DNA of 10,733 bases from a virus, in the UHGV virus genome UHGV-0333516. One strand, written 5' to 3'. Below, one piece after another: positions 1 through 10,733 of this stretch; the stretch's first letter is position 1, and each line of letters opens with the position of its first letter. The notes under the pieces were generated by a model that was not told where the DNA came from, did not search any database, and saw only the letters and a list, made by a program, of their open reading frames with translations. The position numbers and the translations under genes were made by a program.

Positions 1-160
1 ATATTATTGATACAGAGTGTATTAACGGAAAAATCGTTGTTGCCCATATCAATGGTGGGCAAGAAGCGACACTCAAAAAATTTGTTGAGGACTGGCCGAA
101 CAGGTATCTCGTCCCACTAAATCCTAACTATAAAACTATTGAATTCTGTATCAATAATAT
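1..160. repeat. 16-bp perfect inverted repeat (1-16 vs reverse complement of 145-160) flanking a 128-bp segment
   Basis: atattattgatacaga at 1-16 equals the reverse complement of 145-160; both copies encode IIDTE in the same codon phase on opposite strands. Confidence 0.9.
3..146 (+). pseudogene. orphan C-terminal S24-peptidase segment of the CI-like repressor, in opposite orientation to the gene body
   Basis: Plus frame from position 3, with no start codon, translates to IIDTECINGKIVVAHINGGQEATLKKFVEDWPNRYLVPLNPNYKTIEF. This aligns with the LexA/CI region holding the catalytic Lys (VTVKRL...LLPENSEFKPIVV). It continues exactly where the minus-strand repressor ORF breaks off. Confidence 0.6.
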
Positions 161-614
161 CTGGCTCTACGATAACGATAGAACCTTCTGGTATCGATGG
201 TGAGCCGAGGGGATTGGTCATTGAATCACCACGGACCCGTAGTGCAAATGCCATTTCTGATACAAGGGCGGTAGTATAAACCCACTCTTCAGCATCTTCT
301 TTCCTGACACCAGGCTCCGTCATTGTCCATGAACCCGCCTGAACCCACGAGATTAGGGGGACTTTTTTAACTGCGAATATTTCAGGTTTTAGATTTATCT
401 TTGGTTCAGGCGAGCCTTTTCCGCTAACAAGCCACAGAGGATCGCATTTAAGTGCGTTGGCTAGGGCTTGAAGGTTGGCTCCATTTGGTTGGTAGTCGTC
501 CTTTTCCCATCCAGTAACCGTGACACGGTTCACACCAGTCAAATCAGCCAGTGCTTGTTGTGTCAGGTTCAGTTCTTTTCGCCTTTGGCGAATACGATCA
601 CTCATGTTCATCAT
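117..614 (-). CDS. CI-like prophage repressor (HTH_XRE + N-terminal part of S24 LexA-like peptidase), apparently truncated
   Basis: N-terminal HTH (LTQQALADLTGVNRVTVTGWE) and Ser-motif GDSM are present. The ORF ends ...IVIVEPDIIDTEFNSFIVRI*, before the Lys-containing half of the S24 domain. The start abuts an operator-like site (leaderless-type arrangement). Confidence 0.8.
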   Translation of the reverse strand: MMNMSDRIRQRRKELNLTQQALADLTGVNRVTVTGWEKDDYQPNGANLQALANALKCDPLWLVSGKGSPEPKINLKPEIFAVKKVPLISWVQAGSWTMTEPGVRKEDAEEWVYTTALVSEMAFALRVRGDSMTNPLGSPSIPEGSIVIVEPDIIDTEFNSFIVRI

Positions 615-709
615 GTAGGCAATCCTACCACATGCCCATGTAGGATTCTTGACATTGGCATGTTGGATATCCTACATTTCTGCTTAACGTAATTTAACGG
701 GAGACAGAA
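615..709. promoter_or_regulatory. divergent cI/cro promoter-operator region with three operator-like sites
   Basis: Sites gtaggcaatcctac (615-628), gtaggattcttgac (640-653) and gttggatatcctac (662-675) lie about 22-25 bp apart. A consensus -35 TTGACA (649-654) with candidate -10 TACATT (673-678) faces cro. A candidate leftward -10 (taggat on the minus strand, 622-627) sits 7 nt before the cI ATG. Confidence 0.5.
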
Positions 710-907
710 ATGCGGAAATCCGACGTGATTAATTATTTCGGCGGAGTTTGTAAAATCGCCGAAGCCCTAGGTATTAAGCATCCGTCTGTTTCAGAGTGGC
801 CTGAGATTATTCCTGAAGGCCGAGCGTACCAGTTAGAAAAAATTACTAACGGGAAACTGAAAGTTGACGTGTCTTTATATCAAAAGACTAACAGTGCTGC
901 GGCATAA
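710..907 (+). CDS. Cro-like small HTH regulator (YdaS-like)
   Basis: 65-aa ORF divergent from the repressor, RBS gggag 8 nt upstream, HTH-like motif FGGVCKIAEALGIKHPSVSEW. Confidence 0.6.
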   Translation: MRKSDVINYFGGVCKIAEALGIKHPSVSEWPEIIPEGRAYQLEKITNGKLKVDVSLYQKTNSAAA

Positions 908-934
908 AAACACCACAGAAATGAGGAATTAACC

Positions 935-1519
935 GTGGGTAAAGAACCTGAATGGAAAGTTGATAAACAACCAGCATGGCTGGTGGCAGCAATACGAAGA
1001 ACGATTGCTGATTTACCTCATGGCTATGAGGAAGCAGCAGAAATTCTTGGTTTGTATAAATCTGATGATATCACCCCAGCAAAAGATCAATTGCATAACA
1101 GACTGCGTAGCGGTGGGGATCAAATTTTTCCACTTGAGTGGGCCATGGTTTTACAGGATGCCAGTGGTACCAGGCATGTAACAGATGCAATAGCCCGTCG
1201 TAGTAATGGGGTGTTTGTGCCGCTGGTGGTCATTGATGACATTGACAATGGTGACATTAATCAGCGGCTGATGGAGTCAATAGAATGGATTGGCAAGCAT
1301 TCCCAGTACTTACGCAAGGCAACTGCTGATGGAGTTATTGACCAGGCTGAGCGTGAGCAAATCGAAGAGAACAGCTACCAAGTAATGGCGAAGTGGCAGG
1401 AGCATTTAACACTGTTATTTCGTGTTTTTTGTGCGCCGGAAAAGAGTAACGCCCGCGAGTGTGCAGCTCCGGGCGTCGTGGCGTCGATTGCTTCTGGTTG
1501 TGGAGAAACTAACGCATGA
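935..1519 (+). CDS. CII-like phage regulatory protein (CP76/YdaT-like family, assignment by eye)
   Basis: 194-aa ORF directly after cro, GTG start with RBS gagga; its position matches cII-type genes of lambdoid prophages; its stop overlaps the next ATG (ATGA). Confidence 0.45.
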   Translation: MGKEPEWKVDKQPAWLVAAIRRTIADLPHGYEEAAEILGLYKSDDITPAKDQLHNRLRSGGDQIFPLEWAMVLQDASGTRHVTDAIARRSNGVFVPLVVIDDIDNGDINQRLMESIEWIGKHSQYLRKATADGVIDQAEREQIEENSYQVMAKWQEHLTLLFRVFCAPEKSNARECAAPGVVASIASGCGETNA

Positions 1520-1844
1520 ATAGTTTAACGGCAAATAACCGTTTGTCGCAACAGCTGGTGGTCAGCGTCGCTGAACACCTGTTGTTACGGCATGAATGCA
1601 GATTACCAAATCACCTGGCTGTAAGTAACCACAGAGAACTTTACCTGACTGTGGGGGGCGAGTTGTGCAGGAACTTAACCGCTGGTTTCGTGACGGAAGA
1701 GGGCTTTATGTCCATGTTATTCGTTGGGAGCCAGAAACACAGCGCGTTATCTATCTTCGCAAAGACTACCCGCATGAGTGCTTTAGTCCTTTGTGGAAAT
1801 TCAGGCGTGATTTTGTTGAGTGTGAAGGACCACCAGCATATTGA
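1516..1844 (+). CDS. hypothetical protein, reading frame apparently disrupted at a G6 tract (1653-1658)
   Basis: The ATG at 1516 is coupled to the upstream stop. After the G6 run the protein-like reading (RVVQELNRWFRDGRGLYVHVIRWEPETQRVIYLRKDYPHECFSPLWKFRRDFVECEGPPAY*) continues in the adjacent frame to a stop at 1842-1844. One additional G would fuse the two parts. Confidence 0.3.
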
Positions 1845-1932
1845 TTCTGCAATTCCGGGACGTTACACTGCTCAGGCACCTTATAAAGCGGGTGCCGGGA
1901 TTGGCGTCCTGAAATTGTCAACGGCGATGTAT

Positions 1933-1952
1933 GACGCGCCAGCGTCTTTTTT
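1933..1952 (+). terminator. candidate intrinsic terminator
   Basis: gacgc-gcca-gcgtc stem-loop followed by tttttt; lies inside the 386-aa track ORF. Confidence 0.4.
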
Positions 1953-2118
1953 ATCGTCCGCATTTGCTCACATCCAGATTATGGTGGGCTGGGCGGGGGC
2001 ACCGAAAGGTGCGCCGGTCTCCGTTGACGCCGGTTACGCCAACCCCGTCCAGTTCACCACCAGTGAAATTGGCGTTTCCGGTGGTGGAAGTTTTTCACTG
2101 TCAACGGAGGCTGCCATC

Positions 2119-2676
2119 ATGGCTACGATCCCAGCCCTCACTCAACCTGAAATCACCATTGACAACGGCCAGGCCGTTACCACTTCTTTGGCTGTTGCCA
2201 ACTTCTTCTCCAAGCGTCACGACGATGTGCTGAAAAAGATCCGCACTCTGGATTGTTCCCCAGAGTTTTGTGCCCGCAATTTTGCGGAGACATCGATTTC
2301 GGTAAATCAACCGAACGGTGGTACACGCAAGCTCCCTTGCTATCAAATCACACGAGACGGTTTTGCGTTTCTTGCTATGGGTTTCACGGGTAAACGTGCT
2401 GCCCGGTTCAAAGAGGCATACATAAATGCCTTTAACCAGATGGAGAAACAGCTTTCAAAGCCCGCTGTACCGAGCGACGTTGCACATAACGCCAGCGTTC
2501 TCTGTTCCTACATTTCATCAATTCATCAGGTCTGGCTGCAGCAGCTTTATCCTATGTTGGCAAAAGCCGAATCTCCGCTGGCTGTTAGCTTATATGACTA
2601 TATTAATGATGCTTCGGCGCTGGCCAGTCTCATAAATTTGTCGCTGAACCCTTCAGAGGTAAGGGGGCGCAAATGA
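2119..2676 (+). CDS. Rha-family phage regulatory protein
   Basis: Rha-type motif ITIDNGQAVTTSLAVANFFSKRHDDVLKKIR...GGTRKLPCYQITRDGFAFLAMGFTGKRAARFKEAYINAFNQME. The internal ATG at 2119 has RBS ggagg 8 nt upstream. The track ORF 1516..2676 is the same frame; its 5' extension is doubtful. Confidence 0.65.
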   Translation: MATIPALTQPEITIDNGQAVTTSLAVANFFSKRHDDVLKKIRTLDCSPEFCARNFAETSISVNQPNGGTRKLPCYQITRDGFAFLAMGFTGKRAARFKEAYINAFNQMEKQLSKPAVPSDVAHNASVLCSYISSIHQVWLQQLYPMLAKAESPLAVSLYDYINDASALASLINLSLNPSEVRGRK

Positions 2677-2897
2677 TCCGGAATATTTTCAAACGGTTTA
2701 CCAATCATACTTTCCGTTGTCCTCGTCCGGGTCAGTGGTACACCACGCCTGCTGGGCATGTTCTACGTGTTAGCCTGGTTGACCGTGAATGTCAGAAGGT
2801 GGTTTGTGAACCGCTGGGCCGTAATTACCGCGTCAGTATGCCGCTTATAGCCTTTTGCTCCGGAAAAATGTTTAAGCGTCTGGGAGGTGTGGCGTGA
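2673..2897 (+). CDS. hypothetical small Cys-containing protein
   Basis: 74-aa ORF, ATGA overlap with Rha stop, RBS agggggc upstream. Confidence 0.45.
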   Translation: MIRNIFKRFTNHTFRCPRPGQWYTTPAGHVLRVSLVDRECQKVVCEPLGRNYRVSMPLIAFCSGKMFKRLGGVA

Positions 2898-3193
2898 ACT
2901 GTTTTCAGTTTGTGTGCGGATGTGCTTTCGATAACCCGATTCAGCGCCTAATTATGTTGCGTGTTTTGATGTCGGGTTCTTCAGACGGTGAAGGCGAGAG
3001 AGTTATTGATCATCAGGTGCTTGCTGATTTCTGCTGTTGTTCTAAGCAAGCGATATTCAGGGAAACCCTGGCACTGGAAAGAGCTGGTTATCTTCATATC
3101 CGAAAAATTGCAACGCTTACTATTGATGCAAAAGCCAGACTACAACCTGCGCGTGGCTACACAATTCTCATGCTGCGGAAGGAGGTTGTATGA
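2894..3193 (+). CDS. hypothetical protein, possible DNA-binding
   Basis: 99-aa ORF, GTG start overlapping the upstream stop (GTGA), RBS gggagg upstream; alternative start at the internal Met. Confidence 0.45.
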   Translation: MNCFQFVCGCAFDNPIQRLIMLRVLMSGSSDGEGERVIDHQVLADFCCCSKQAIFRETLALERAGYLHIRKIATLTIDAKARLQPARGYTILMLRKEVV

Positions 3194-4185
3194 GCCGTTA
3201 CGCCCCCACACCGGAAGTTATGGCTATTGGTCAAATTAATATTTCCGGCAATGTTACACCTGCGACCTGGTGGAAATATATTCGACTACCCAGTGGGCGT
3301 CCGGATGCGACGGCTATCGCTCTGCTTTCAGAGATCGTTTACTGGTACCGCCCGACAGAGGTCAGGGATGAGCACACCGGAGCGTTGCTGGGATATCGCA
3401 AGCGTTTTCAGGGCGACAAACTGCAAAGAAGCTACCAGGCGTTTGCTGAGCAGTTTGGTTTCGGGAAAAGGGAAACCGCAGATGCGCTGAAGCGTCTGCG
3501 CGATGCAGGGTTTATTACTCTGGATTTACGCACGGTGGAAATGCTCGATGGGGTGAAATGCAGCAATATTTTGTTTGTCGGGATCAACCCACAGGCAATT
3601 GCGGCCATCACCACACCTTCTTCTGTTTCGCCAGAAAGTAACAGCAATAATGCAATCAGCGATACAGCTATTACGTTAAAACGGAACACCCCCCGACGTC
3701 ATAACGGAACAGGGGATACGCCGAATGTTGATACAAATACAGAGATTACTACAGAGATTACTACAGAGATTACAACGGAGACTAAAAACACTATTGGCGC
3801 ATCCGCTGACGCGTCTGCACCAGCGCGTTCTGCCAGACAGGAATATTCACCGGAATTTGAACAGGCCTGGCAGGAATATCCCAAACGTGCTGGTGGTAAT
3901 TCAAAATCCGCCGCTTTTAAAGCCTGGAAAGCCCGAATCAGGGAAGGTGTGACACCCGAAACCATGCTCGACGGTGTGAAACGCTATGCCGCCTGGGTGC
4001 GTGTCTCTGGAAATACCGGTACCCAGTTCGTGAAGCAGGCGTCGACGTTCTTTGGTCCGGATCGTCATTTCGAAGAATCCTGGGAAGTTCCTGCGGTATC
4101 TGCAGCCAGACGCGAGGACCCGTACTTCAAAGCCAGTTACGACAACGTGGACTACAGCCAGATCCCGGAAGGATTCAGGGGGTGA
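3190..4185 (+). CDS. phage replication protein with DnaT-like C-terminus
   Basis: 331-aa ORF with strong RBS ggaaggagg; C-terminal ...DYSQIPEGFRG resembles the C-terminus of primosomal protein DnaT (...SQIPPGFRG); central TEITTEITTEITTE linker. Confidence 0.65.
   Translation: MSRYAPTPEVMAIGQINISGNVTPATWWKYIRLPSGRPDATAIALLSEIVYWYRPTEVRDEHTGALLGYRKRFQGDKLQRSYQAFAEQFGFGKRETADALKRLRDAGFITLDLRTVEMLDGVKCSNILFVGINPQAIAAITTPSSVSPESNSNNAISDTAITLKRNTPRRHNGTGDTPNVDTNTEITTEITTEITTETKNTIGASADASAPARSARQEYSPEFEQAWQEYPKRAGGNSKSAAFKAWKARIREGVTPETMLDGVKRYAAWVRVSGNTGTQFVKQASTFFGPDRHFEESWEVPAVSAARREDPYFKASYDNVDYSQIPEGFRG
3739..3786. repeat. tandem 12-bp direct repeats (about 3.5-4 copies) inside the replication gene
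   Basis: acagagattact x2, acagagattaca, then degenerate acggagactaaa. Confidence 0.8.
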
Positions 4186-4187
4186 TC

Positions 4188-4280
4188 ATGAGTCTTTTGA
4201 ATGAAGTTCAGAAATTCATTGAAGCCCATCCGGGGTGTACTTCCGGAGACATTGCGGATGCTTTTTACGTGGGGGCTTAA
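4188..4280 (+). CDS. 30-aa small ORF (winged-helix N-terminal-like fragment)
   Basis: ATG overlaps the upstream stop; stop overlaps the Dam ATG (TAATG); MSLLNEVQKFIEAHPGCTSGDIADAF resembles the N-terminus of PapI/FaeA-type small regulators. Confidence 0.25.
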   Translation: MSLLNEVQKFIEAHPGCTSGDIADAFYVGA

Positions 4281-4933
4281 TGAGTAATAAATATTGCCAG
4301 GCGCTGGTAGAACTGCGGAACAAACCAGCCCATGAACTGAAGGAAGTGGGCGATCAGTGGCGCACGCCGGACAACATTTTCTGGGGAATTAACACCTTGT
4401 TTGGTCCGTTTGTTCTGGATCTGTTCACTGACGGTGATAACGCCAAATGTGCCGCGTATTACACGGCGGAAGACAACGCGCTGGCGCATGACTGGTCAGA
4501 ACGTCTTGCGGAGCTTAAAGGTGCTGCCTTTGGTAATCCCCCATACAGCCGCGCCAGTCAGCATGAGGGGCAATACATCACCGGCATGCGTTACATCATG
4601 AAACATGCCAGTGCCATGCGTGATAAGGGCGGGCGCTATGTTTTCCTGATCAAAGCGGCCACCAGCGAAGTGTGGTGGCCGGAAGATGCAGATCATATTG
4701 CTTTTATTCGCGGGCGTATTGGTTTTGAACTGCCAGCCTGGTTTATCCCGAAAGACGAAAAGCAGGTGCCAACAGGTGCTTTCTTCGCTGGTGCTATTGC
4801 TGTTTTCGACAAGACCTGGAAGGGAGCGGCAATCAGCTACATCGGGCGCGATGAACTTGAGGCATGTGGTGAGGCGTTTCTGGCGCAGGTTCGCCAGCAG
4901 GCGGAAAAACTGGTCAGGGAGATGGCGGCATGA
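4280..4933 (+). CDS. phage Dam-type DNA N6-adenine methyltransferase
   Basis: GNPPY motif (AAFGNPPYS); likely start ATG 4280 with G-rich RBS; the track ORF starts at 4235 in the same frame. Confidence 0.7.
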   Translation: MSNKYCQALVELRNKPAHELKEVGDQWRTPDNIFWGINTLFGPFVLDLFTDGDNAKCAAYYTAEDNALAHDWSERLAELKGAAFGNPPYSRASQHEGQYITGMRYIMKHASAMRDKGGRYVFLIKAATSEVWWPEDADHIAFIRGRIGFELPAWFIPKDEKQVPTGAFFAGAIAVFDKTWKGAAISYIGRDELEACGEAFLAQVRQQAEKLVREMAA

Positions 4934-5256
4934 CGACATTAACTCAATGCCAGCAGCAGGTGCTGGATATGCTGATTTCTTATCAGAAAGAACGTGGCTT
5001 CCCGCCAACCAATCAGGAGGTGGCAACCATGCTGGGATACCGTTCGGTGAATGCAGCGGTGGAGCATCTTCGCGCACTGGAGAAAAAAGGTGTCATCACG
5101 ATAAAGCGTGGCGTGGCCCGGGGTATCACTCTTCATACCGCGGTGAAGGACGACGACAGCGAGGCGGTCGGGATTATCCGCGCCCTGCTTGCCGGTGAGG
5201 CAAACGCCAGGCTGCGTGCAGCCCACTGGTTACATGAGAGGGGCCTGAAAGTATGA
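4930..5256 (+). CDS. LexA N-terminal DNA-binding-domain protein (no peptidase domain)
   Basis: QQQVLDMLISYQKERGFPPTNQEVATMLGYRSVNAAVEHLRALEKKGVITIKRGVARGITL aligns with E. coli LexA residues about 6-70 (winged HTH); there is no S24 domain. Confidence 0.75.
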   Translation: MTTLTQCQQQVLDMLISYQKERGFPPTNQEVATMLGYRSVNAAVEHLRALEKKGVITIKRGVARGITLHTAVKDDDSEAVGIIRALLAGEANARLRAAHWLHERGLKV

Positions 5257-5648
5257 AGCTAATACTGCCTTTTCCGCCCAGCGTGAACACGTACTGGCGA
5301 CACCCCAACAAAGGGGCGTTTGCTGGTAAGAGCCTGATAAGCGCGGCGGGGCGAAAATTCCAGAGCGCGGCGTGTGCAGCAATAGTTGAGCAGTTACGTC
5401 GTCTGCCGAAACCAACGTCGGCACCTGCTTCAGTGGAGATCGTGTTGTTTCCTCCGGATAACCGGATCCGCGATCTGGACAACTATAACAAGGCGCTGTT
5501 TGACGCCCTGACCCACGCGGGTGTGTGGGAAGACGACAGACAGGTGAAAAGAATGCTGGTGGAGTGGGGACCGGTTATCCCGGAGGGGAAGGTCGAGATC
5601 ACTATCAGTAAGTACGAAAAAGCGAGTTGCAAATTAGCAACTCGGTAA
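5253..5648 (+). CDS. rusA: RusA Holliday-junction resolvase
   Basis: 131-aa ORF with RusA-type motifs (LPFPPSVNTYWRH..., RDLDNYNKALFDALTHAGVWEDD); position in the nin-like region. Confidence 0.85.
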   Translation: MKLILPFPPSVNTYWRHPNKGAFAGKSLISAAGRKFQSAACAAIVEQLRRLPKPTSAPASVEIVLFPPDNRIRDLDNYNKALFDALTHAGVWEDDRQVKRMLVEWGPVIPEGKVEITISKYEKASCKLATR

Positions 5649-5693
5649 CGGAATTGAGCAACACCCTAAATTTGGGTATTACCTCGTTAAAGA

Positions 5694-5713
5694 TACTGTA
5701 TTTATGAACAGTG
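5694..5713. promoter_or_regulatory. candidate LexA (SOS) box
   Basis: tactgtatttatgaacagtg: perfect CTGT-N8-ACAG core, 16/20 match to TACTGTATATATATACAGTA; overlaps a candidate -35 (tgaaca) with -10 tattaa at 5728-5733. Confidence 0.5.
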
Positions 5714-5810
5714 TATCCTTGATAACTATTAAAAATCGCAGTAAGTTCATCCTGCATCAACGAAAAGGGAGTGCAGTCCCGCTCGTGGATAAAAATTTGT
5801 GGAGAAACCA

Positions 5811-6626
5811 ATGAATCAGTTGCTTGTAATTGATGGCGTTTCTGTGCGCCAGTACTTCGAATCTAACTACTGTCTTAACGACCTTCAGAAAGCTGCTCTT
5901 CTTGCCGCTGGTGAGAATCGCTCCTCCCGTTCGCTGGAAGTTCACGAGTTTATGCGTCGTCCTGAAACGAAGGCTCTTGTGGAATTATTGGAAGAAGAAA
6001 CTACGGGAGATTCCCGTAGTATTCCTGTCATCACCATTCAGGGGCGCAATGGTGGGACGTATGTCTGTAAAGAGCTGGTCTATGCATATGCAATGTGGAT
6101 CAGCCCGGCATTCAGCTTAAAAGTGATACGTACTTTTGATGCGCTTCATAATTCATCACCAGAAGAAACCACATCCGACAAAATTAAATCCGGGGTCATT
6201 CTGCTTGAATCAGCAGCAAAGACTCTAAATCTGTCAAACTCCTCGAAACTTGGTGCATACCAGAAATTATCAAAGGTAGCTGGTCTTCCTGAACTTATGC
6301 CGATCTATGCCATTGATGCACCTGCTGATGCGCCAGATGGTTCAAGCCGCCCTACGCTGTCGCTGAGTGCACTGCTGAAGCAGTATGGTATCCGCCTGAC
6401 GGCTAATCAGGCATATCACCAGATGGCGAAGCTGGGGATCGTTGAACAACGCGAACGATACAGCCGTACCGCGATTAACAACATCAAAAAATTCTGGTCG
6501 CTGACAGCGAAAGGTTGCATGTTCGGCAAGAACATCACCAGTCCCGCAAATCCGCGCGAGACGCAGCCGCATTTCTTCGAATCCCGATTCCCTGAGCTGT
6601 TAAAGCTGCTCGATACCGTTCATTGA
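5811..6626 (+). CDS. KilA-N domain protein, antirepressor-like
   Basis: N-terminal KilA-N-like region (...PVITIQGRNGGTYVCKELVYAYAMWISPAFSLKVIRTFDAL); ATG 5811 with RBS gtggag; the track start 5799 is a GTG in the same frame. Confidence 0.65.
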   Translation: MNQLLVIDGVSVRQYFESNYCLNDLQKAALLAAGENRSSRSLEVHEFMRRPETKALVELLEEETTGDSRSIPVITIQGRNGGTYVCKELVYAYAMWISPAFSLKVIRTFDALHNSSPEETTSDKIKSGVILLESAAKTLNLSNSSKLGAYQKLSKVAGLPELMPIYAIDAPADAPDGSSRPTLSLSALLKQYGIRLTANQAYHQMAKLGIVEQRERYSRTAINNIKKFWSLTAKGCMFGKNITSPANPRETQPHFFESRFPELLKLLDTVH

Positions 6627-6627
6627 G

Positions 6628-7623
6628 GTGACCGTGAGAGCACTACTGACCCCTGAAATTGCCCCGCGTATGGGGATCGTATTGTTCAGACCCGGTTCAG
6701 AGCTGATGCCCCTGTTTATGCAGGGGCGTGTCCTGCTGGAGCCTGAGCCGGAACGTTATTCATCTTTTGCCAGTGGTGCCGTTCCGGCAGCATCACAACC
6801 GCTGGCGGATGATCCTGCCGTTCGGGTCGTGTTCCGCAATGAGGCAGTGATCCGTCGTGCTGGTGGCGTGGAATGTCTTGAAAGCTGGTTACTTCGTGAA
6901 AAAGGTTGCCAGTGGCCTCATTCCGACTGGCACAGCGAGAACATGACCACAATGCGACACGCGCCGGGCGCAATCCGTCTGTGCTGGCACTGCGATAACC
7001 AGCTGCGCGATCAGTTCACGGAACGGCTGGAATCAATGGCAACGGATAACTGTGCCCGCTGGGTGTTGTCTGTTGTGCGTCGGGATCTCGGTTTTGATGA
7101 CAGTCACGTTGTGACAATGCCGGAACTGTGCTGGTGGCTGGTTCGTAATGATCTGGCGGATGCCTTACCGGAAAGTGCAGCCCGTAAGGCACTGAGATTA
7201 CCGAAGCCTGTTGTGCCGTCTGTCACCCGGGAGAGTGACCTTGTGCCTTCGGTTCCGGCCACCAGCATCATCCAGAATAAAGCGAAAAAGGTGCTGGCGC
7301 TGAAAGTGGATCCGGAGTCGCCGGAGTCTTTTATGTTACGCCCAAAACGTCGCCGCTGGGTTAACGAAAAGTACACGCGCTGGGTTAAGACGCAGCCGTG
7401 TGCATGTTGTGGAAAGCCTGCTGATGATCCCCACCACCTGATAGGCCACGGTCAGGGGGGAATGGGTACAAAAGCGCATGACCTCTTCGTGCTGCCTTTG
7501 TGCAGAAAGCATCACGACGAGCTGCATGCGGATACCGTGGCATTTGAAGAGAAGTATGGCTCCCAGCTGGAGCTGATATTTCGTTTTATCGATCGTGCGC
7601 TGGCAATAGGCGTGCTGGCCTGA
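6628..7623 (+). CDS. DUF968-like prophage protein with C-terminal HNH-like Cys/His motif
   Basis: C-terminal CACCGKPADDPHHLIGHGQGGMGTKAHDLFVLPLCRKHHDELH; sits immediately upstream of Q as in other E. coli prophages. Confidence 0.6.
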   Translation: MTVRALLTPEIAPRMGIVLFRPGSELMPLFMQGRVLLEPEPERYSSFASGAVPAASQPLADDPAVRVVFRNEAVIRRAGGVECLESWLLREKGCQWPHSDWHSENMTTMRHAPGAIRLCWHCDNQLRDQFTERLESMATDNCARWVLSVVRRDLGFDDSHVVTMPELCWWLVRNDLADALPESAARKALRLPKPVVPSVTRESDLVPSVPATSIIQNKAKKVLALKVDPESPESFMLRPKRRRWVNEKYTRWVKTQPCACCGKPADDPHHLIGHGQGGMGTKAHDLFVLPLCRKHHDELHADTVAFEEKYGSQLELIFRFIDRALAIGVLA

Positions 7624-7640
7624 TTTTGTGGAGAAAGTTG

Positions 7641-8012
7641 ATGCGTGATATTCAAATGGTTCTTGAACGTTGGGGGGCATGGGTGGCAAATAATCACGAG
7701 GATGTGGAATGGTCATCTGTTGCTGCAGGTTTTAAGGGATTAATTCCTTCGAAAGTAAAATCCCGCCCGCAATGTAGCGATGACGATGGCCTGATCATTA
7801 GCTCTGCGATGACAGTTCTTAAGAAAAAGGAACCGTATCAATACGAATTACTGGAAATGTATTATGTGTATGGGGTTACATTACGGGTGTTGGGGGTAAA
7901 ACTGGGGATATCACTTAATCAGGTTGTTATCAGACTGCAGAAAGCTGAAGGGTTTATTGACGGTTGTCTGGCAATGTTGGGGGTATCTTTAGAAATTGAT
8001 TGTTACATATAG
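7641..8012 (+). CDS. late-gene antitermination protein Q (small Q family)
   Basis: MRDIQMVLERWGAWVANNHEDVEWSS...SKVKSRPQCSDDD...RLQKAEGFIDGCLAMLGV matches the Q-family pattern of E. coli cryptic prophages; ATG 7641 with RBS gtggag. Confidence 0.8.
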   Translation: MRDIQMVLERWGAWVANNHEDVEWSSVAAGFKGLIPSKVKSRPQCSDDDGLIISSAMTVLKKKEPYQYELLEMYYVYGVTLRVLGVKLGISLNQVVIRLQKAEGFIDGCLAMLGVSLEIDCYI

Positions 8013-8087
8013 TAATAAATTCAATCAAAGTAAATAATCATATTTTATTATAACCTCCTGATGATACCTGTTCATTGGGAGGTTATT

Positions 8088-8705
8088 ATGGATAAAAATG
8101 TAGAGCATGTATTAGTTGATGCAATTGAAAATAAGCAATCTTTAACAGTCGTTTACTTAGGAGGGAGCCAGCCCGGAACATTAAGGAATATTTCTCCGAT
8201 TAGTATAAATGGGGATAAATTGCGGGCAAGATGCCATAGTTCTGGAGCAGTAAAGGTTTTCAATCTTGGGAAAATACAGTTACCCAGTGACTCCTGCGCG
8301 GTATCTATGCACTATGGAGATTTAGAAGTTAAAGCTTATGAGACGATGCAGAGCGTAAATGACAACTTTCATGCCCTTTATCCTGAAGGACGATGGGGTG
8401 TTGATTTTAATGAGCATCGCTTTGCTTTATTTGATTTTTTTAAAAACGGGAAACGAAAAAAAACGGCATTTATGGCAATTGAGTTCAGGGAAAGAGATGA
8501 AGAGAAAATAATAACAGGTGTAACAATTGATATTGGTATATCTGGAACAGTGATTTCTGAGAAGTCCCGAATCCCAAAAAGACGACCATGGGTAGTGGTT
8601 GGTCCCGAACACGGAGAATACAGTACTTATTCAACTTTGGACAAGGCTGCTACAGCGTTTTTTGAGAGGCTTTCGTTGATAGCATCCGGCCTGGAAGATA
8701 ATTGA
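8088..8705 (+). CDS. hypothetical AT-rich cargo protein with WYL-like N-terminal motif
   Basis: Strong RBS gggagg 5 nt before ATG 8088; about 205 aa; visibly AT-rich compared with flanking genes; N-terminal LTVVYLGGSQPGTLRNISPISINGDKLRARCHSSGAVKVFNLGKI resembles the WYL/SH3-like beta-barrel pattern (by eye). Confidence 0.6.
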   Translation: MDKNVEHVLVDAIENKQSLTVVYLGGSQPGTLRNISPISINGDKLRARCHSSGAVKVFNLGKIQLPSDSCAVSMHYGDLEVKAYETMQSVNDNFHALYPEGRWGVDFNEHRFALFDFFKNGKRKKTAFMAIEFRERDEEKIITGVTIDIGISGTVISEKSRIPKRRPWVVVGPEHGEYSTYSTLDKAATAFFERLSLIASGLEDN

Positions 8706-8835
8706 TTTTATGTTTGGTATTCAGAGTTCGCCGTGCTTAAGAAAGTCAAGATTCTAAAAATACTGAATGAGCTACTTGTGTTATAACAAAAATGCTATTA
8801 GTGTGTTAAGAGTGGTTACTTCGCCACACAACTTA

Positions 8836-8859
8836 AACCCGCCACTGAGCGGGTTTTTT
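8836..8859 (+). terminator. intrinsic terminator (tR'-like)
   Basis: aacccgc-cactga-gcgggtt stem-loop followed by tttttt. Confidence 0.6.
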
Positions 8860-8981
8860 GTACCTGTAAACTTGGTGCAGTACAGTAAACACGCTGGTGG
8901 TCGTGAATACTGACTTTTTATCTTGCTGGCTTTTTAGACAAGAGTTATTGGTATGTCATGTTAACCAGAAGGGAAAAAGAC

Positions 8982-9179
8982 ATGCTAAAACAGCAAGATA
9001 TGACCGAAACCGCCAGAGTGGTGTTTAATGAATTGAGCGTCACCGAACCGGCGACAGTCGGGGAGATTGCGCAGAATACTTACCTTTCACGCGAACGCTG
9101 CCAGTTAATACTGACCCAGCTGGTTATGGCGGGTCTGGCAGACTATCAGTTCGGTTGTTACAGACGCCTTCCGCAGTGA
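8982..9179 (+). CDS. small winged-helix-like protein (PapI/FaeA-like by eye)
   Basis: 65 aa from ATG 8982 (RBS agaaggga); the track start 8958 is in the same frame; TVGEIAQNTYLSRERCQLILTQLVMAGLA resembles small wHTH regulators. Confidence 0.45.
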   Translation: MLKQQDMTETARVVFNELSVTEPATVGEIAQNTYLSRERCQLILTQLVMAGLADYQFGCYRRLPQ

Positions 9180-9193
9180 AGGCTTTTTTATTT
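9166..9193 (+). terminator. intrinsic terminator overlapping the stop of the small wHTH gene
   Basis: gccttc-cgcagt-gaaggc stem-loop followed by ttttttattt. Confidence 0.6.
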
Positions 9194-9329
9194 GTGGTAA
9201 ATGGGCGGTTGGTGGGTGTTAGGGGCACCCACCAGCCATCTGCTCATGCGTTGGGTTCACAAGCAAACCTCAGGCCCACTGCTTTGCGCAAAAGCAGAAT
9301 GAGCCTATCAGAGACAGGCTTAATGATCC

Positions 9330-10379
9330 ATGCTTAATACTGTAAAAATATCCAGTTGTGAGTTAATCAACGCCGACTGCCTGGAATTTATCCGGTCGTT
9401 ACCCGAAAATTCTGTTGACCTGATAGTCACGGACCCGCCGTACTTTAAAGTGAAGCCTGAGGGCTGGGATAACCAGTGGAAGGGCGACGATGATTACCTG
9501 AAGTGGCTGGACCAGTGTCTGGCGCAGTTCTGGCGGGTGCTGAAACCTGCCGGAAGTCTTTACCTGTTCTGTGGTCATCGCCTGGCATCTGATATCGAAA
9601 TCATGATGCGTGAACGCTTCAGTGTGCTGAACCATATTATCTGGGCGAAGCCGTCCGGACGCTGGAACGGATGCAACAAGGAAAGCCTGCGGGCGTATTT
9701 CCCCGCCACAGAGCGCATTCTGTTCGCGGAACATTATCAGGGGCCGTATCGTCCGAAAGATGCCGGGTATGAGGCGAAGAGCAGGGCACTGAAACAGCAT
9801 GTGATGGCCCCGCTGATTGCTTACTTTCGTGATGCGCGCGCTGCCCTGGGGATAACGGCAAAACAGATTGCAGATGCCACAGGAAAGAAAAACATGGTGC
9901 CGCACTGGTTCAGTGCCAGTCAGTGGCAGCTACCGAACGAAAGCGATTATCTGAAATTACAGTCGCTGTTTGCCCGGGTGGCAGAAGAGAAACATCAGCG
10001 GGGAGAACTGGAAAAGTCCCATTACCAACTGGTCAGCACATACAGTGAGCTGAACCGGCAGTATACGGAACTGCTGAGTGAATATAAAAATTTGCGGCGG
10101 TATTTCGGTGTGACGGTGCAGGTGCCGTACACCGATGTGTGGACGTATAAACCGGTGCAGTACTATCCAGGGAAACATCCGTGCGAAAAACCGGCAGAAA
10201 TGCTGCAGCAGATAATCAGCGCAAGTAGTCGTCCTGGTGATCTGGTTGCGGATTTTTTCATGGGGTCGGGTTCAACGGTAAAAGCGGCGATGGCACTGGG
10301 GCGTCGTGCGATTGGTGTTGAGCTGGAGACCGGACGTTTTGAGCAGACAGTCAGGGAAGTTCAGGATTTAATCGTTTGA
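9330..10379 (+). CDS. DNA methyltransferase (beta-class N6A/N4C type; motif IV DPPY precedes motif I)
   Basis: LIVTDPPY near the N-terminus and DFFMGSGST near the C-terminus; 349 aa. Confidence 0.85.
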   Translation: MLNTVKISSCELINADCLEFIRSLPENSVDLIVTDPPYFKVKPEGWDNQWKGDDDYLKWLDQCLAQFWRVLKPAGSLYLFCGHRLASDIEIMMRERFSVLNHIIWAKPSGRWNGCNKESLRAYFPATERILFAEHYQGPYRPKDAGYEAKSRALKQHVMAPLIAYFRDARAALGITAKQIADATGKKNMVPHWFSASQWQLPNESDYLKLQSLFARVAEEKHQRGELEKSHYQLVSTYSELNRQYTELLSEYKNLRRYFGVTVQVPYTDVWTYKPVQYYPGKHPCEKPAEMLQQIISASSRPGDLVADFFMGSGSTVKAAMALGRRAIGVELETGRFEQTVREVQDLIV

Positions 10380-10390
10380 AACGGATGAGA

Positions 10391-10419
10391 TTGCAGTATT
10401 AATTCCGTAACGTTATTAT
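10391..10419 (+). promoter_or_regulatory. candidate stable-RNA-type promoter for the tRNA cluster
   Basis: -35 ttgcag (10391-10396), 17-bp spacer, -10 tattat (10414-10419), GC-rich discriminator ctgcgcgcgg immediately before the tRNA 5' end. Confidence 0.45.
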
Positions 10420-10428
10420 TCTGCGCGC

Positions 10429-10504
10429 GGCCCTTTAGCTCAGTGGTGAGAGCGAGCGACTCATAATCGCCAGGTCGCTGGTTCAAATCCAGCAAGGGCC
10501 ACCA
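10429..10504 (+). tRNA. tRNA-Ile(CAU) (ileX/ileZ-like; tRNA-Met not excluded)
   Basis: 76-nt cloverleaf: acceptor ggccctt/aagggcc, D-stem gctc/gagc, anticodon loop ctcataa (CAT), T-loop ttcaaat, 3' ACCA; close to E. coli ileX. Confidence 0.8.
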
Positions 10505-10513
10505 TATCACATA

Positions 10514-10590
10514 CCGCCATTAGCTCATCGGGATAGAGCGTCAGCCTTCGAAGCTGGTTGCGCGGGGTTCGAGTCCTCGATGGCGGTCCA
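10514..10590 (+). tRNA. tRNA-Arg(UCG)
   Basis: 77-nt cloverleaf: acceptor ccgccat/atggcgg, D-stem gctc/gagc, anticodon loop cttcgaa (TCG), T-arm cgggg-ttcgagt-cctcg, 3' TCCA. Confidence 0.75.
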
Positions 10591-10615
10591 TTATCTGTAC
10601 CCTGCGTTGTTAGCT

Positions 10616-10733
10616 CCCGCGCAACCAGCTTCGAAGGCTGACGCTCTATCCCGATGAGCTAATGGCGGTATGTGATATGGTGGCCCTTGCTGGATTTGAA
10701 CCAGCGACCTGGCGATTATGAGTCGCTCGCTCT
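10616..10733 (-). repeat. perfect 118-bp inverted duplicate of 10449-10566 (partial tRNA-Arg and tRNA-Ile copies), running to the window end
   Basis: 10616-10733 is the exact reverse complement of 10449-10566; the 49-bp unique spacer 10567-10615 holds the tRNA-Arg 3' end. Confidence 0.9.

What the first reader, a model, noticed from the sequence alone, without database searches (positions are those of the whole stretch)
1..614. Repressor gene split by an inverted segment at a 16-bp inverted repeat
The minus-strand CI-like ORF (614 down to 117) has the HTH and the S24 Ser motif (GDSM) but stops 13 codons after EPD. The missing continuation (IIDTE CINGKIVVAHINGGQEATLKKF...PLNPNYKTIEF, including the presumptive catalytic Lys in LKKF) is encoded on the plus strand at 3-146. 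The junction is a 16-bp perfect inverted repeat (1-16 vs 145-160) whose two copies both encode IIDTE in register. As written, the repressor would lack the Lys half of its autocleavage domain. That would make it RecA-uncleavable and probably impaired in C-terminal dimerisation, which fits a prophage induced through an antirepressor instead. Alternatives are (a) a genuine small inversion or ON/OFF switch inside the repressor gene, (b) an inverted duplication continuing left of the window, or (c) a foldback assembly artefact. The true C-terminal tail (about 20 aa after KTIEF) is absent in every reading.
Basis: partly seen in the sequence, partly recalled or inferred. Interest (0 to 1): 0.75.

Follow-up and report, generated by a model that had tools for sequence, protein, structure and literature searches.

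The report
Contig-end foldback, not a split repressor
The "split" phage repressor gene is an ordinary intact lambda-CI-like gene whose last part was turned round at the very end of the sequence, and the same flaw sits at the other end, so this is almost certainly a sequencing or assembly artefact and not biology.

Summary
A perfect 16-bp inverted repeat (1-16 / 145-160) exists. A minus-strand CI-like ORF (614-117) stops 13 codons after EPD. Its continuation is encoded on the plus strand at 3-146.

The biological reading does not hold. Window 145-10616 is collinear (99.87 %, no indels) with a prophage in a complete E. coli chromosome, where the repressor is one contiguous 217-aa gene. Window 1-144 is the exact reverse complement of the 144 bp that end 16 bp inside the forward part. 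The "inverted repeat" is therefore 16 bp present twice, created by the rearrangement. The reference has only one copy, so the repeat cannot have mediated an inversion.

The repeat starts exactly at base 1. The other end of the window carries the same structure in unrelated tRNA sequence: 10616-10733 is the exact reverse complement of 10449-10566 and runs to the last base.

None of 148 near-identical E. coli or phage records has this arrangement. The junction is absent from three contig collections. The window encodes no invertase.

Best explanation: foldback (inverted) chimeric tips of 144 and 118 nt at both contig ends. This is not a real feature and is of low interest.

The parts
1..144 (.). 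Left foldback tip. It is the exact reverse complement of the reference sequence that should lie left of position 161, and it encodes repressor residues 153-199 on the wrong (+) strand.
   Evidence: window 1-144 = rc(L001 2873-3016) and rc(L008 8502-8645), 100 % over 144 nt
145..160 (.). The 16 bp of genuine sequence that are also present, inverted, at 1-16. This overlap is the whole of the 'inverted repeat'.
   Evidence: The reference L008 has a single copy of this 16-mer even at up to 2 mismatches
144..145 (.). Chimeric junction. It is blunt, with no shared bases between the two partners, and it creates an EcoRI site and the false codon F.
   Evidence: The reverse-complement match ends at 144 and the forward match starts at 145, with 0 nt extension either way
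145..614 (-). Genuine 5' part (codons 1-157) of a lambda-CI/LexA-family repressor gene. The full gene is 217 codons in the references.
   Evidence: 100 % identical to MT225100.1 / NZ_CP028112.1 'LexA family protein' WP_000981537.1. HTH_3 and Peptidase_S24 domains. Full-length alignment to lambda CI at E = 7e-25
10449..10566 (.). Genuine arm of the right-end foldback. It covers part of tRNA-Met(CAT) and part of tRNA-Arg(TCG).
10567..10615 (.). 49-nt 'loop' of the right-end foldback. It is genuine sequence that is collinear with the reference.
10616..10733 (.). Right foldback tip. It is the exact reverse complement of 10449-10566 and runs to the last base of the window. It replaces the third tRNA (Arg, UCU) found in the reference.
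   Evidence: 118 nt, 100 % complementary. Equals rc(L008 18934-19051). The reference continues with different sequence

Best explanation
The window is a whole contig, or a contig-like sequence: a 10.47-kb piece of a lambdoid (Stx-phage-like) E. coli prophage early region. Each of its two ends carries a short foldback chimera. In each case, real sequence is followed by the reverse complement of nearby real sequence.

- Left end: the 144-nt tip is the reverse complement of the stretch that should continue the repressor gene leftwards, plus 16 bp of overlap.
- Right end: the 118-nt tip is the reverse complement of sequence 49 nt further in.

Such inverted junctions are the typical product of chimeric reads. 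They arise from strand switching or snap-back during amplification or library preparation, or from mis-joined reads, and they can extend a contig tip by less than one read length.

In the organism the repressor gene is intact. It encodes 217 aa with an HTH domain, an Ala-Gly cleavage site and a Ser131/Lys177 dyad, and it works like lambda CI.

Shown: the geometry, the exact identity of both tips to the reference, the absence of the arrangement elsewhere, and the second foldback.
Inferred: that the cause is technical. No reads are available.
For: 1. Window 145-10616 equals L008 8630-19101 (a complete E. coli chromosome, CM127687.1) with 14 substitutions and no indel. Window 1-144 and 10616-10733 map at 100 % to the opposite strand of adjacent sequence.
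2. In L001, L002, L008, L009 and L010 the repressor is one contiguous 217-aa gene.
3. 142 E. coli records and 6 phage records match 145-700 at mostly >=99 %. None covers >=80 % of window 1-700 in one piece, and every genome has two places.
4. The 16-mer is single-copy in the reference, so the repeat was created by the join. 16 bp are duplicated, which marks an inverted duplication and not an inversion.
5. Both repeat arms are cut by the window ends, at base 1 and base 10733.
6. The two foldbacks lie in unrelated sequence, one in a repressor gene and one in tRNA genes, which points to a process tied to contig ends and not to the gene.
7. The junction 42-mer is absent from the viral, genome and metagenome contig collections. 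The 165-aa product is not among the recorded genes.
8. Inverted chimeras joining nearby positions on opposite strands are a documented artefact class. They made up >85 % of MDA chimeras (PMC1855051), and sonication libraries give chimeric reads with cis/trans inverted repeats (PMC10908179).
Against: - No reads, coverage or assembler information are available, so the technical origin is inferred and not observed.
- The junctions have 0 nt (left) and 1 nt (right) of microhomology. More than 70 % of MDA template-switch junctions show 2-21 nt, so that particular mechanism is not a close fit.
- A pure de Bruijn-graph hairpin would leave arms of k-1 at both ends. The arms here are 16 and 118 nt, so no single k explains them (my inference).
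- The left breakpoint is about 180 bp from the nearest mosaic boundary between immunity types (L008 8322). There is therefore no obvious repeat-induced reason for the contig to end exactly there.
- A real foldback rearrangement in the sampled DNA would look identical in a consensus sequence.
Confidence: 0.86

Rival explanations
1. A real foldback (inverted duplication) rearrangement exists in the sampled DNA. One possibility is a defective prophage copy. Another is a sub-population of linear, hairpin-capped molecules spanning the immunity-replication-Q region, formed in vivo by strand switching at stalled forks or by hairpin capping of broken ends. The assembler would have collapsed the long inverted arms and kept only their first 16 and 118 nt.
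For: The geometry of arm, loop and inverted arm at both ends is what a collapsed inverted duplication would leave. Both tips are 100 % identical to genuine sequence. The segment between the two turn-round points (about 10.6 kb) holds the early and replication region of the prophage.
Against: - It has not been seen in any of 148 closely related records or in three contig collections.
- There is no microhomology at the junctions, although snap-back priming needs some.
- Tip lengths of 144 and 118 nt are both shorter than a common short-read length, which suits read-limited chimeric tips better.
- No selective rationale is apparent.
Confidence: 0.1
2. A programmed or recurrent DNA inversion (an ON/OFF switch) operates inside the repressor gene. 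It would be mediated by the 16-bp inverted repeats and would toggle between a full-length and a truncated repressor.
For: The only support is a perfect 16-bp inverted repeat bracketing 128 bp, whose two copies both read IIDTE in frame.
Against: - The un-rearranged gene has only one copy of the 16-mer, and no second copy even at 2 mismatches within 21 kb. There is therefore no substrate for inversion.
- Re-inverting 17-144 would not restore the gene, because the 18-codon tail and the stop codon are missing.
- No serine or tyrosine invertase lies among the window's genes.
- 0 of 148 relatives are in the 'flipped' state.
- The same structure occurs at the other contig end, in tRNA genes.
Confidence: 0.01
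3. The lysogen genuinely carries a C-terminally truncated, RecA-uncleavable repressor allele of 165 aa and is induced through the Rha/Ash or KilA-N antirepressor-like genes downstream.
For: As written, the ORF lacks Lys177 and half of the S24 domain. Rha/Ash and KilA-N proteins are encoded in the window.
Against: - This reading depends on the junction being real (see above).
- The same Rha/Ash and KilA-N genes accompany the intact repressor in L008, L009 and L010, so their presence says nothing about the truncation.
- The exact 165-aa product is not on record anywhere.
Confidence: 0.03

Closest known systems
Lambda CI / LexA-family (HTH + peptidase S24) prophage repressor, e.g. WP_000981537.1 of E. 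coli RM8385 and QIW91713.1 of phage Lys8385Vzw
   Same: Codons 1-157 are 100 % identical at the DNA level. The intact homologue aligns with lambda CI over residues 9-210 at E = 7e-25. Ser131 aligns with CI Ser149, Lys177 with CI Lys192, and Ala93-Gly94 with the CI Ala111-Gly112 cleavage site.
   Different: In the window, codons 153-199 are on the opposite strand and codons 200-217 plus the stop codon are absent. This is a property of the sequence record and most likely not of the gene.
Foldback / inverted chimeric artefacts of amplification and library preparation (MDA chimeras, Lasken & Stockwell 2007, PMC1855051; sonication or enzymatic fragmentation chimeras, Chen et al. 2024, PMC10908179)
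   Same: The join links nearby positions (49 and 128 nt apart) on opposite strands of the same molecule. Both partners are otherwise error-free. The joins sit at contig tips and are shorter than a read.
   Different: The junctions here have 0-1 nt of microhomology, whereas most MDA junctions have 2-21 nt. The sequencing method of the source is unknown, so the specific artefact class cannot be assigned.
Site-specific DNA inversion switches (Hin/Gin/Cin serine invertases; fimS-type tyrosine recombinase switches)
   Same: A short inverted repeat brackets a short segment inside or next to a gene.
   Different: There is no second repeat copy in the parental sequence, no invertase, no population of both orientations, sequence is duplicated instead of merely flipped, and flipping back does not restore a gene.

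Membership tests
LexA/CI-type autocleaving repressor (HTH + peptidase S24) | N-terminal HTH DNA-binding domain | tested here: met
   HTH_3 at residues 8-62, E = 7e-16, in the window ORF
LexA/CI-type autocleaving repressor (HTH + peptidase S24) | Complete S24 domain in one reading frame | tested here: not met
   The window ORF matches only profile positions 1-60 of 116. The intact homologue matches 1-115. The rest lies on the + strand at 3-143, and the last 18 codons are absent.
LexA/CI-type autocleaving repressor (HTH + peptidase S24) | Ser-Lys catalytic dyad and Ala-Gly cleavage site | tested here: inconclusive
   Ser131 and Ala93-Gly94 are in the window ORF. Lys177 is encoded only on the inverted tip. 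In the contiguous reference gene all three align with lambda CI S149, K192 and A111-G112.
Invertible DNA switch | Inverted repeats present at both borders of the segment in the parental arrangement | tested here: not met
   The reference L008 has one copy of the 16-mer at up to 2 mismatches
Invertible DNA switch | Conservative inversion (nothing duplicated or lost), with both orientations giving defined products | tested here: not met
   16 bp are duplicated and at least 56 bp of gene tail are missing
Invertible DNA switch | Cognate invertase nearby | tested here: not met
   No resolvase/invertase or integrase family was found among the window's genes or their counterparts in L008. Only the 10.7-kb window was tested.
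Invertible DNA switch | Both orientations found among related genomes | tested here: not met
   0 of 142 E. coli records and 0 of 6 phage records carry the window's orientation
Foldback (inverted) chimera at a contig end | Both sides of the junction are exact copies of adjacent reference sequence on opposite strands | tested here: met
   100 % over 144 nt and 118 nt
Foldback (inverted) chimera at a contig end | Located at the sequence terminus, with the arm truncated by the end | tested here: met
   The arms start at base 1 and end at base 10733
Foldback (inverted) chimera at a contig end | Not reproducible in independent assemblies | tested here: met
   The junction is absent from three collections and from all related complete genomes
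Foldback (inverted) chimera at a contig end | Junction supported only by minority or chimeric reads | not testable with these tools
   No reads or coverage are available. The source contig was not found.

The most novel reading that the evidence does not exclude
The two foldbacks are real. The sample would then contain linear DNA molecules of about 10.6 kb that cover the prophage immunity-replication-antitermination region, with both ends closed as hairpins or continued as inverted duplications. They could be produced in vivo, for example by strand switching at the two forks of in-situ (pre-excision) prophage replication. The repressor gene would be destroyed on those molecules.
Probability: 0.04. 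Interest if true: 0.5.

Novelty: not a real feature. Interest (0 to 1): 0.04.

Why it matters
As biology it does not matter, because the repressor is an ordinary, already annotated lambda-CI-like protein. The value is as quality control. Taken at face value, the record would suggest a non-inducible, antirepressor-dependent prophage or a novel switch inside an immunity gene, and neither is warranted. It also gives a practical rule for the scan: an inverted repeat whose arm touches the first or last base of a contig should be checked against the other end, and against a close reference, before it is interpreted.

Tried and rejected
- **Source contig and independent occurrences.** I searched the 42-nt junction in viral contigs, genome contigs and metagenome contigs and found nothing. 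Exact-product look-ups of the truncated ORF and of the window's methyltransferase variant also found nothing. The provenance therefore stays unknown.
- **Microhomology for snap-back or template switching.** There are 0 nt at the left junction and 1 nt at the right. No natural inverted repeat in the reference lies near either breakpoint, so I cannot name the artefact mechanism.
- **De Bruijn-graph hairpin.** This would leave k-1 nt of inverted arm. The arms of 16 and 118 nt are incompatible with one k, so I rejected it as the sole cause (inference).
- **Contig break at a mosaic or repeat boundary.** The nearest immunity-module boundary is at L008 8322, about 180 bp beyond the breakpoint, so it does not coincide.
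- **EcoRI site GAATTC at 141-146.** The site is created by the junction. Neither parental sequence has it, so restriction and ligation do not explain the join.
- **Mate concatenation.** Each junction has the geometry of two mates of an inward-facing read pair written one after the other. Any foldback has that geometry, so the observation does not discriminate.

Full report
**Observation**

- The repeat finder reports arms 1-16 and 145-160, 16 nt, 100 % complementary, with 128 nt between them.
- The 16-mer occurs nowhere else in the window, and no shuffle reproduces two copies.
- The minus-strand ORF 614-117 is 165 aa and ends ...VEPDIIDTEFNSFIVRI*.
- The plus-strand frame 3-146 reads IIDTECINGK...LKKF...PLNPNYKTIEF.
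- Pfam finds HTH_3 (residues 8-62) and only the first 60 of 116 positions of Peptidase_S24 in that ORF.

**What the region is in related genomes**

Megablast of window 1-700 found 6 phage records and 142 E. coli records, nearly all at >=99 % identity. In every one the match covers only 145-700 in one piece, with a second place in the record, and no record covers >=80 % of the query in one piece.

In phage Lys8385Vzw (MT225100.1, L001) and its host chromosome (L002), the gene under the match is a contiguous 654-bp 'LexA family' repressor. Its product is 217 aa and ends ...NPNYKTIECGENCRIVGLVKQVIMDF.

An exact string comparison shows that window 145 onward equals L001 3001 onward. Window 1-144 is the exact reverse complement of L001 2873-3016. 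Neither match can be extended by a single base across 144|145. The left 144 bases are therefore the very sequence that should continue the gene, turned round, and they include 16 bp (reference 3001-3016) that are also present in the forward part.

The '16-bp inverted repeat encoding IIDTE in both copies' is that overlap. The final F of KTIEF is a junction codon, and the real residue is Cys200.

**Best reference and the other end**

A look-up of the window's Rha/Ash protein brought in L008 (E. coli CM127687.1, a complete chromosome).
- Window 145-10616 equals L008 8630-19101 with 14 substitutions and no indel.
- Window 1-144 equals rc(L008 8502-8645) at 100 %.
- Window 10616-10733 equals rc(L008 18934-19051) at 100 %.

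The right end of the window therefore has the same anatomy as the left. 10616-10733 (118 nt, to the very last base) is the perfect reverse complement of 10449-10566, with a 49-nt loop. This lies in the phage tRNA cluster: tRNA-Met(CAT) at 10429-10504 and tRNA-Arg(TCG) at 10514-10590. The reference goes on into a third tRNA, annotated tRNA-Arg in related genomes, with a UCU anticodon by my reading of the sequence.

Two foldbacks, each truncated by a window end and each in unrelated sequence, are a property of the ends of this sequence record. They are not a property of the repressor gene.

**Why it is not an inversion switch**

- L008 contains the 16-mer once, and no second copy appears at up to 2 mismatches in 21 kb. 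The repeat therefore did not exist before the rearrangement and cannot have mediated it.
- The structure duplicates 16 bp, which a conservative inversion does not do.
- Flipping 17-144 back would not restore the gene. The last 18 codons and the stop codon are absent, and no 12-mer of the 56-bp tail is in the window.
- The window's genes are Cro, a CII-like protein, Rha/Ash, Dam, a LexA_DNA_bind protein, RusA, KilA-N, DUF968/HNH, antiterminator Q, an N6_N4 methyltransferase and small unknowns. None is a serine or tyrosine invertase.
- The same antirepressor-like genes accompany the intact repressor in L008, L009 and L010, so they say nothing about a truncated allele.

**The protein itself**

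The intact homologue aligns with lambda CI (3bdn) over residues 9-210 at E = 7e-25.
- GDSM aligns with GNSM (Ser131 = CI Ser149).
- ATLKKF aligns with FTFKKL (Lys177 = CI Lys192).
- VQAG aligns with VQAG (Ala93-Gly94 = CI Ala111-Gly112).

From the established mechanism of the family, the real protein is expected to be an ordinary RecA-stimulated autocleaving repressor.

**Is the junction seen anywhere else?**

The 42-nt junction string has no exact match in the viral, genome or metagenome contig collections. The 165-aa product is not on record. The source contig itself could not be found, because the window's exact methyltransferase variant is not on record either.

**Most likely mechanism**

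The structures are foldback (inverted) chimeras at contig tips. Real sequence is joined to the opposite strand of sequence 49 or 128 nt away, extending each end by 118 or 144 nt, which is less than a common short-read length.

This artefact class is documented.
- In MDA, >85 % of chimeras are inverted sequences with an intervening deletion, mostly intramolecular (PMC1855051).
- In sonication libraries, chimeric reads with cis or trans inverted repeats dominate the artefacts (PMC10908179).

I cannot say which process applies here. The junctions have 0 and 1 nt of microhomology, unlike most MDA junctions. Arms of 16 and 118 nt do not fit a k-1 de Bruijn hairpin with a single k (inference). The left breakpoint is about 180 bp from the nearest mosaic boundary.

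A genuine foldback rearrangement in the sampled DNA would give the same consensus, so I leave it about 10 %. A functional switch gets about 1 %.

**Verdict**

This is not a real feature of the genome with about 0.86 confidence. Interest is low.

Noticed in passing
window 10449-10733: The right end of the window is a second terminal foldback. 10616-10733 is the exact reverse complement of 10449-10566, with a 49-nt loop, and it runs to the last base. It overwrites the third tRNA of the phage tRNA trio (Arg, UCU), which is present in L008 at 19088 onward.
   Followed up: yes
window 647-679; L008 8329-8361 and 9132-9164: In the intact references, a ~33-nt sequence in the repressor-cro intergenic region (window 647-679, overlapping the palindrome 660-677) recurs as an inverted copy (~91 %) about 85 bp downstream of the repressor stop codon. 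It looks like OR/OL-type operator sets flanking the immunity gene. The second copy lies outside the window.
   Followed up: partly
window 10001-10028 (within ORF 9330-10379): Seven of the 14 differences from L008 cluster in 28 bp of the N6_N4 DNA methyltransferase gene. The resulting exact 349-aa protein is not on record. This could be a small recombination patch from a paralogous prophage, or an assembly mix of two prophage copies.
   Followed up: partly
window 1516-2676: A 386-aa protein combines an Ash domain (117-212) with a Rha domain (222-311). The exact sequence is very widespread, listed in 1397 blocks of the collection, and it occurs next to at least two different immunity (repressor/cro) modules. 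This illustrates the mosaic boundary near window 1427.
   Followed up: no
window 141-146: The left chimeric junction creates an EcoRI site (GAATTC) that neither parental sequence has. I judge this a coincidence.
   Followed up: partly
L005 13909-15417; L007 13346-14559: In related prophages the Dam methyltransferase region is interrupted. L005 has a group II intron-type reverse transcriptase (RVT_1 + GIIM), and L007 has an IS3-family element (rve + HTH_Tnp_1).
   Followed up: no
L006 8404-9051: One related E. coli assembly has its (different-immunity) S24 repressor called as two genes, of 115 aa (HTH) and 86 aa (S24). This is a possible genuine frameshift or split of a prophage repressor, unlike the case examined here.
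   Followed up: no
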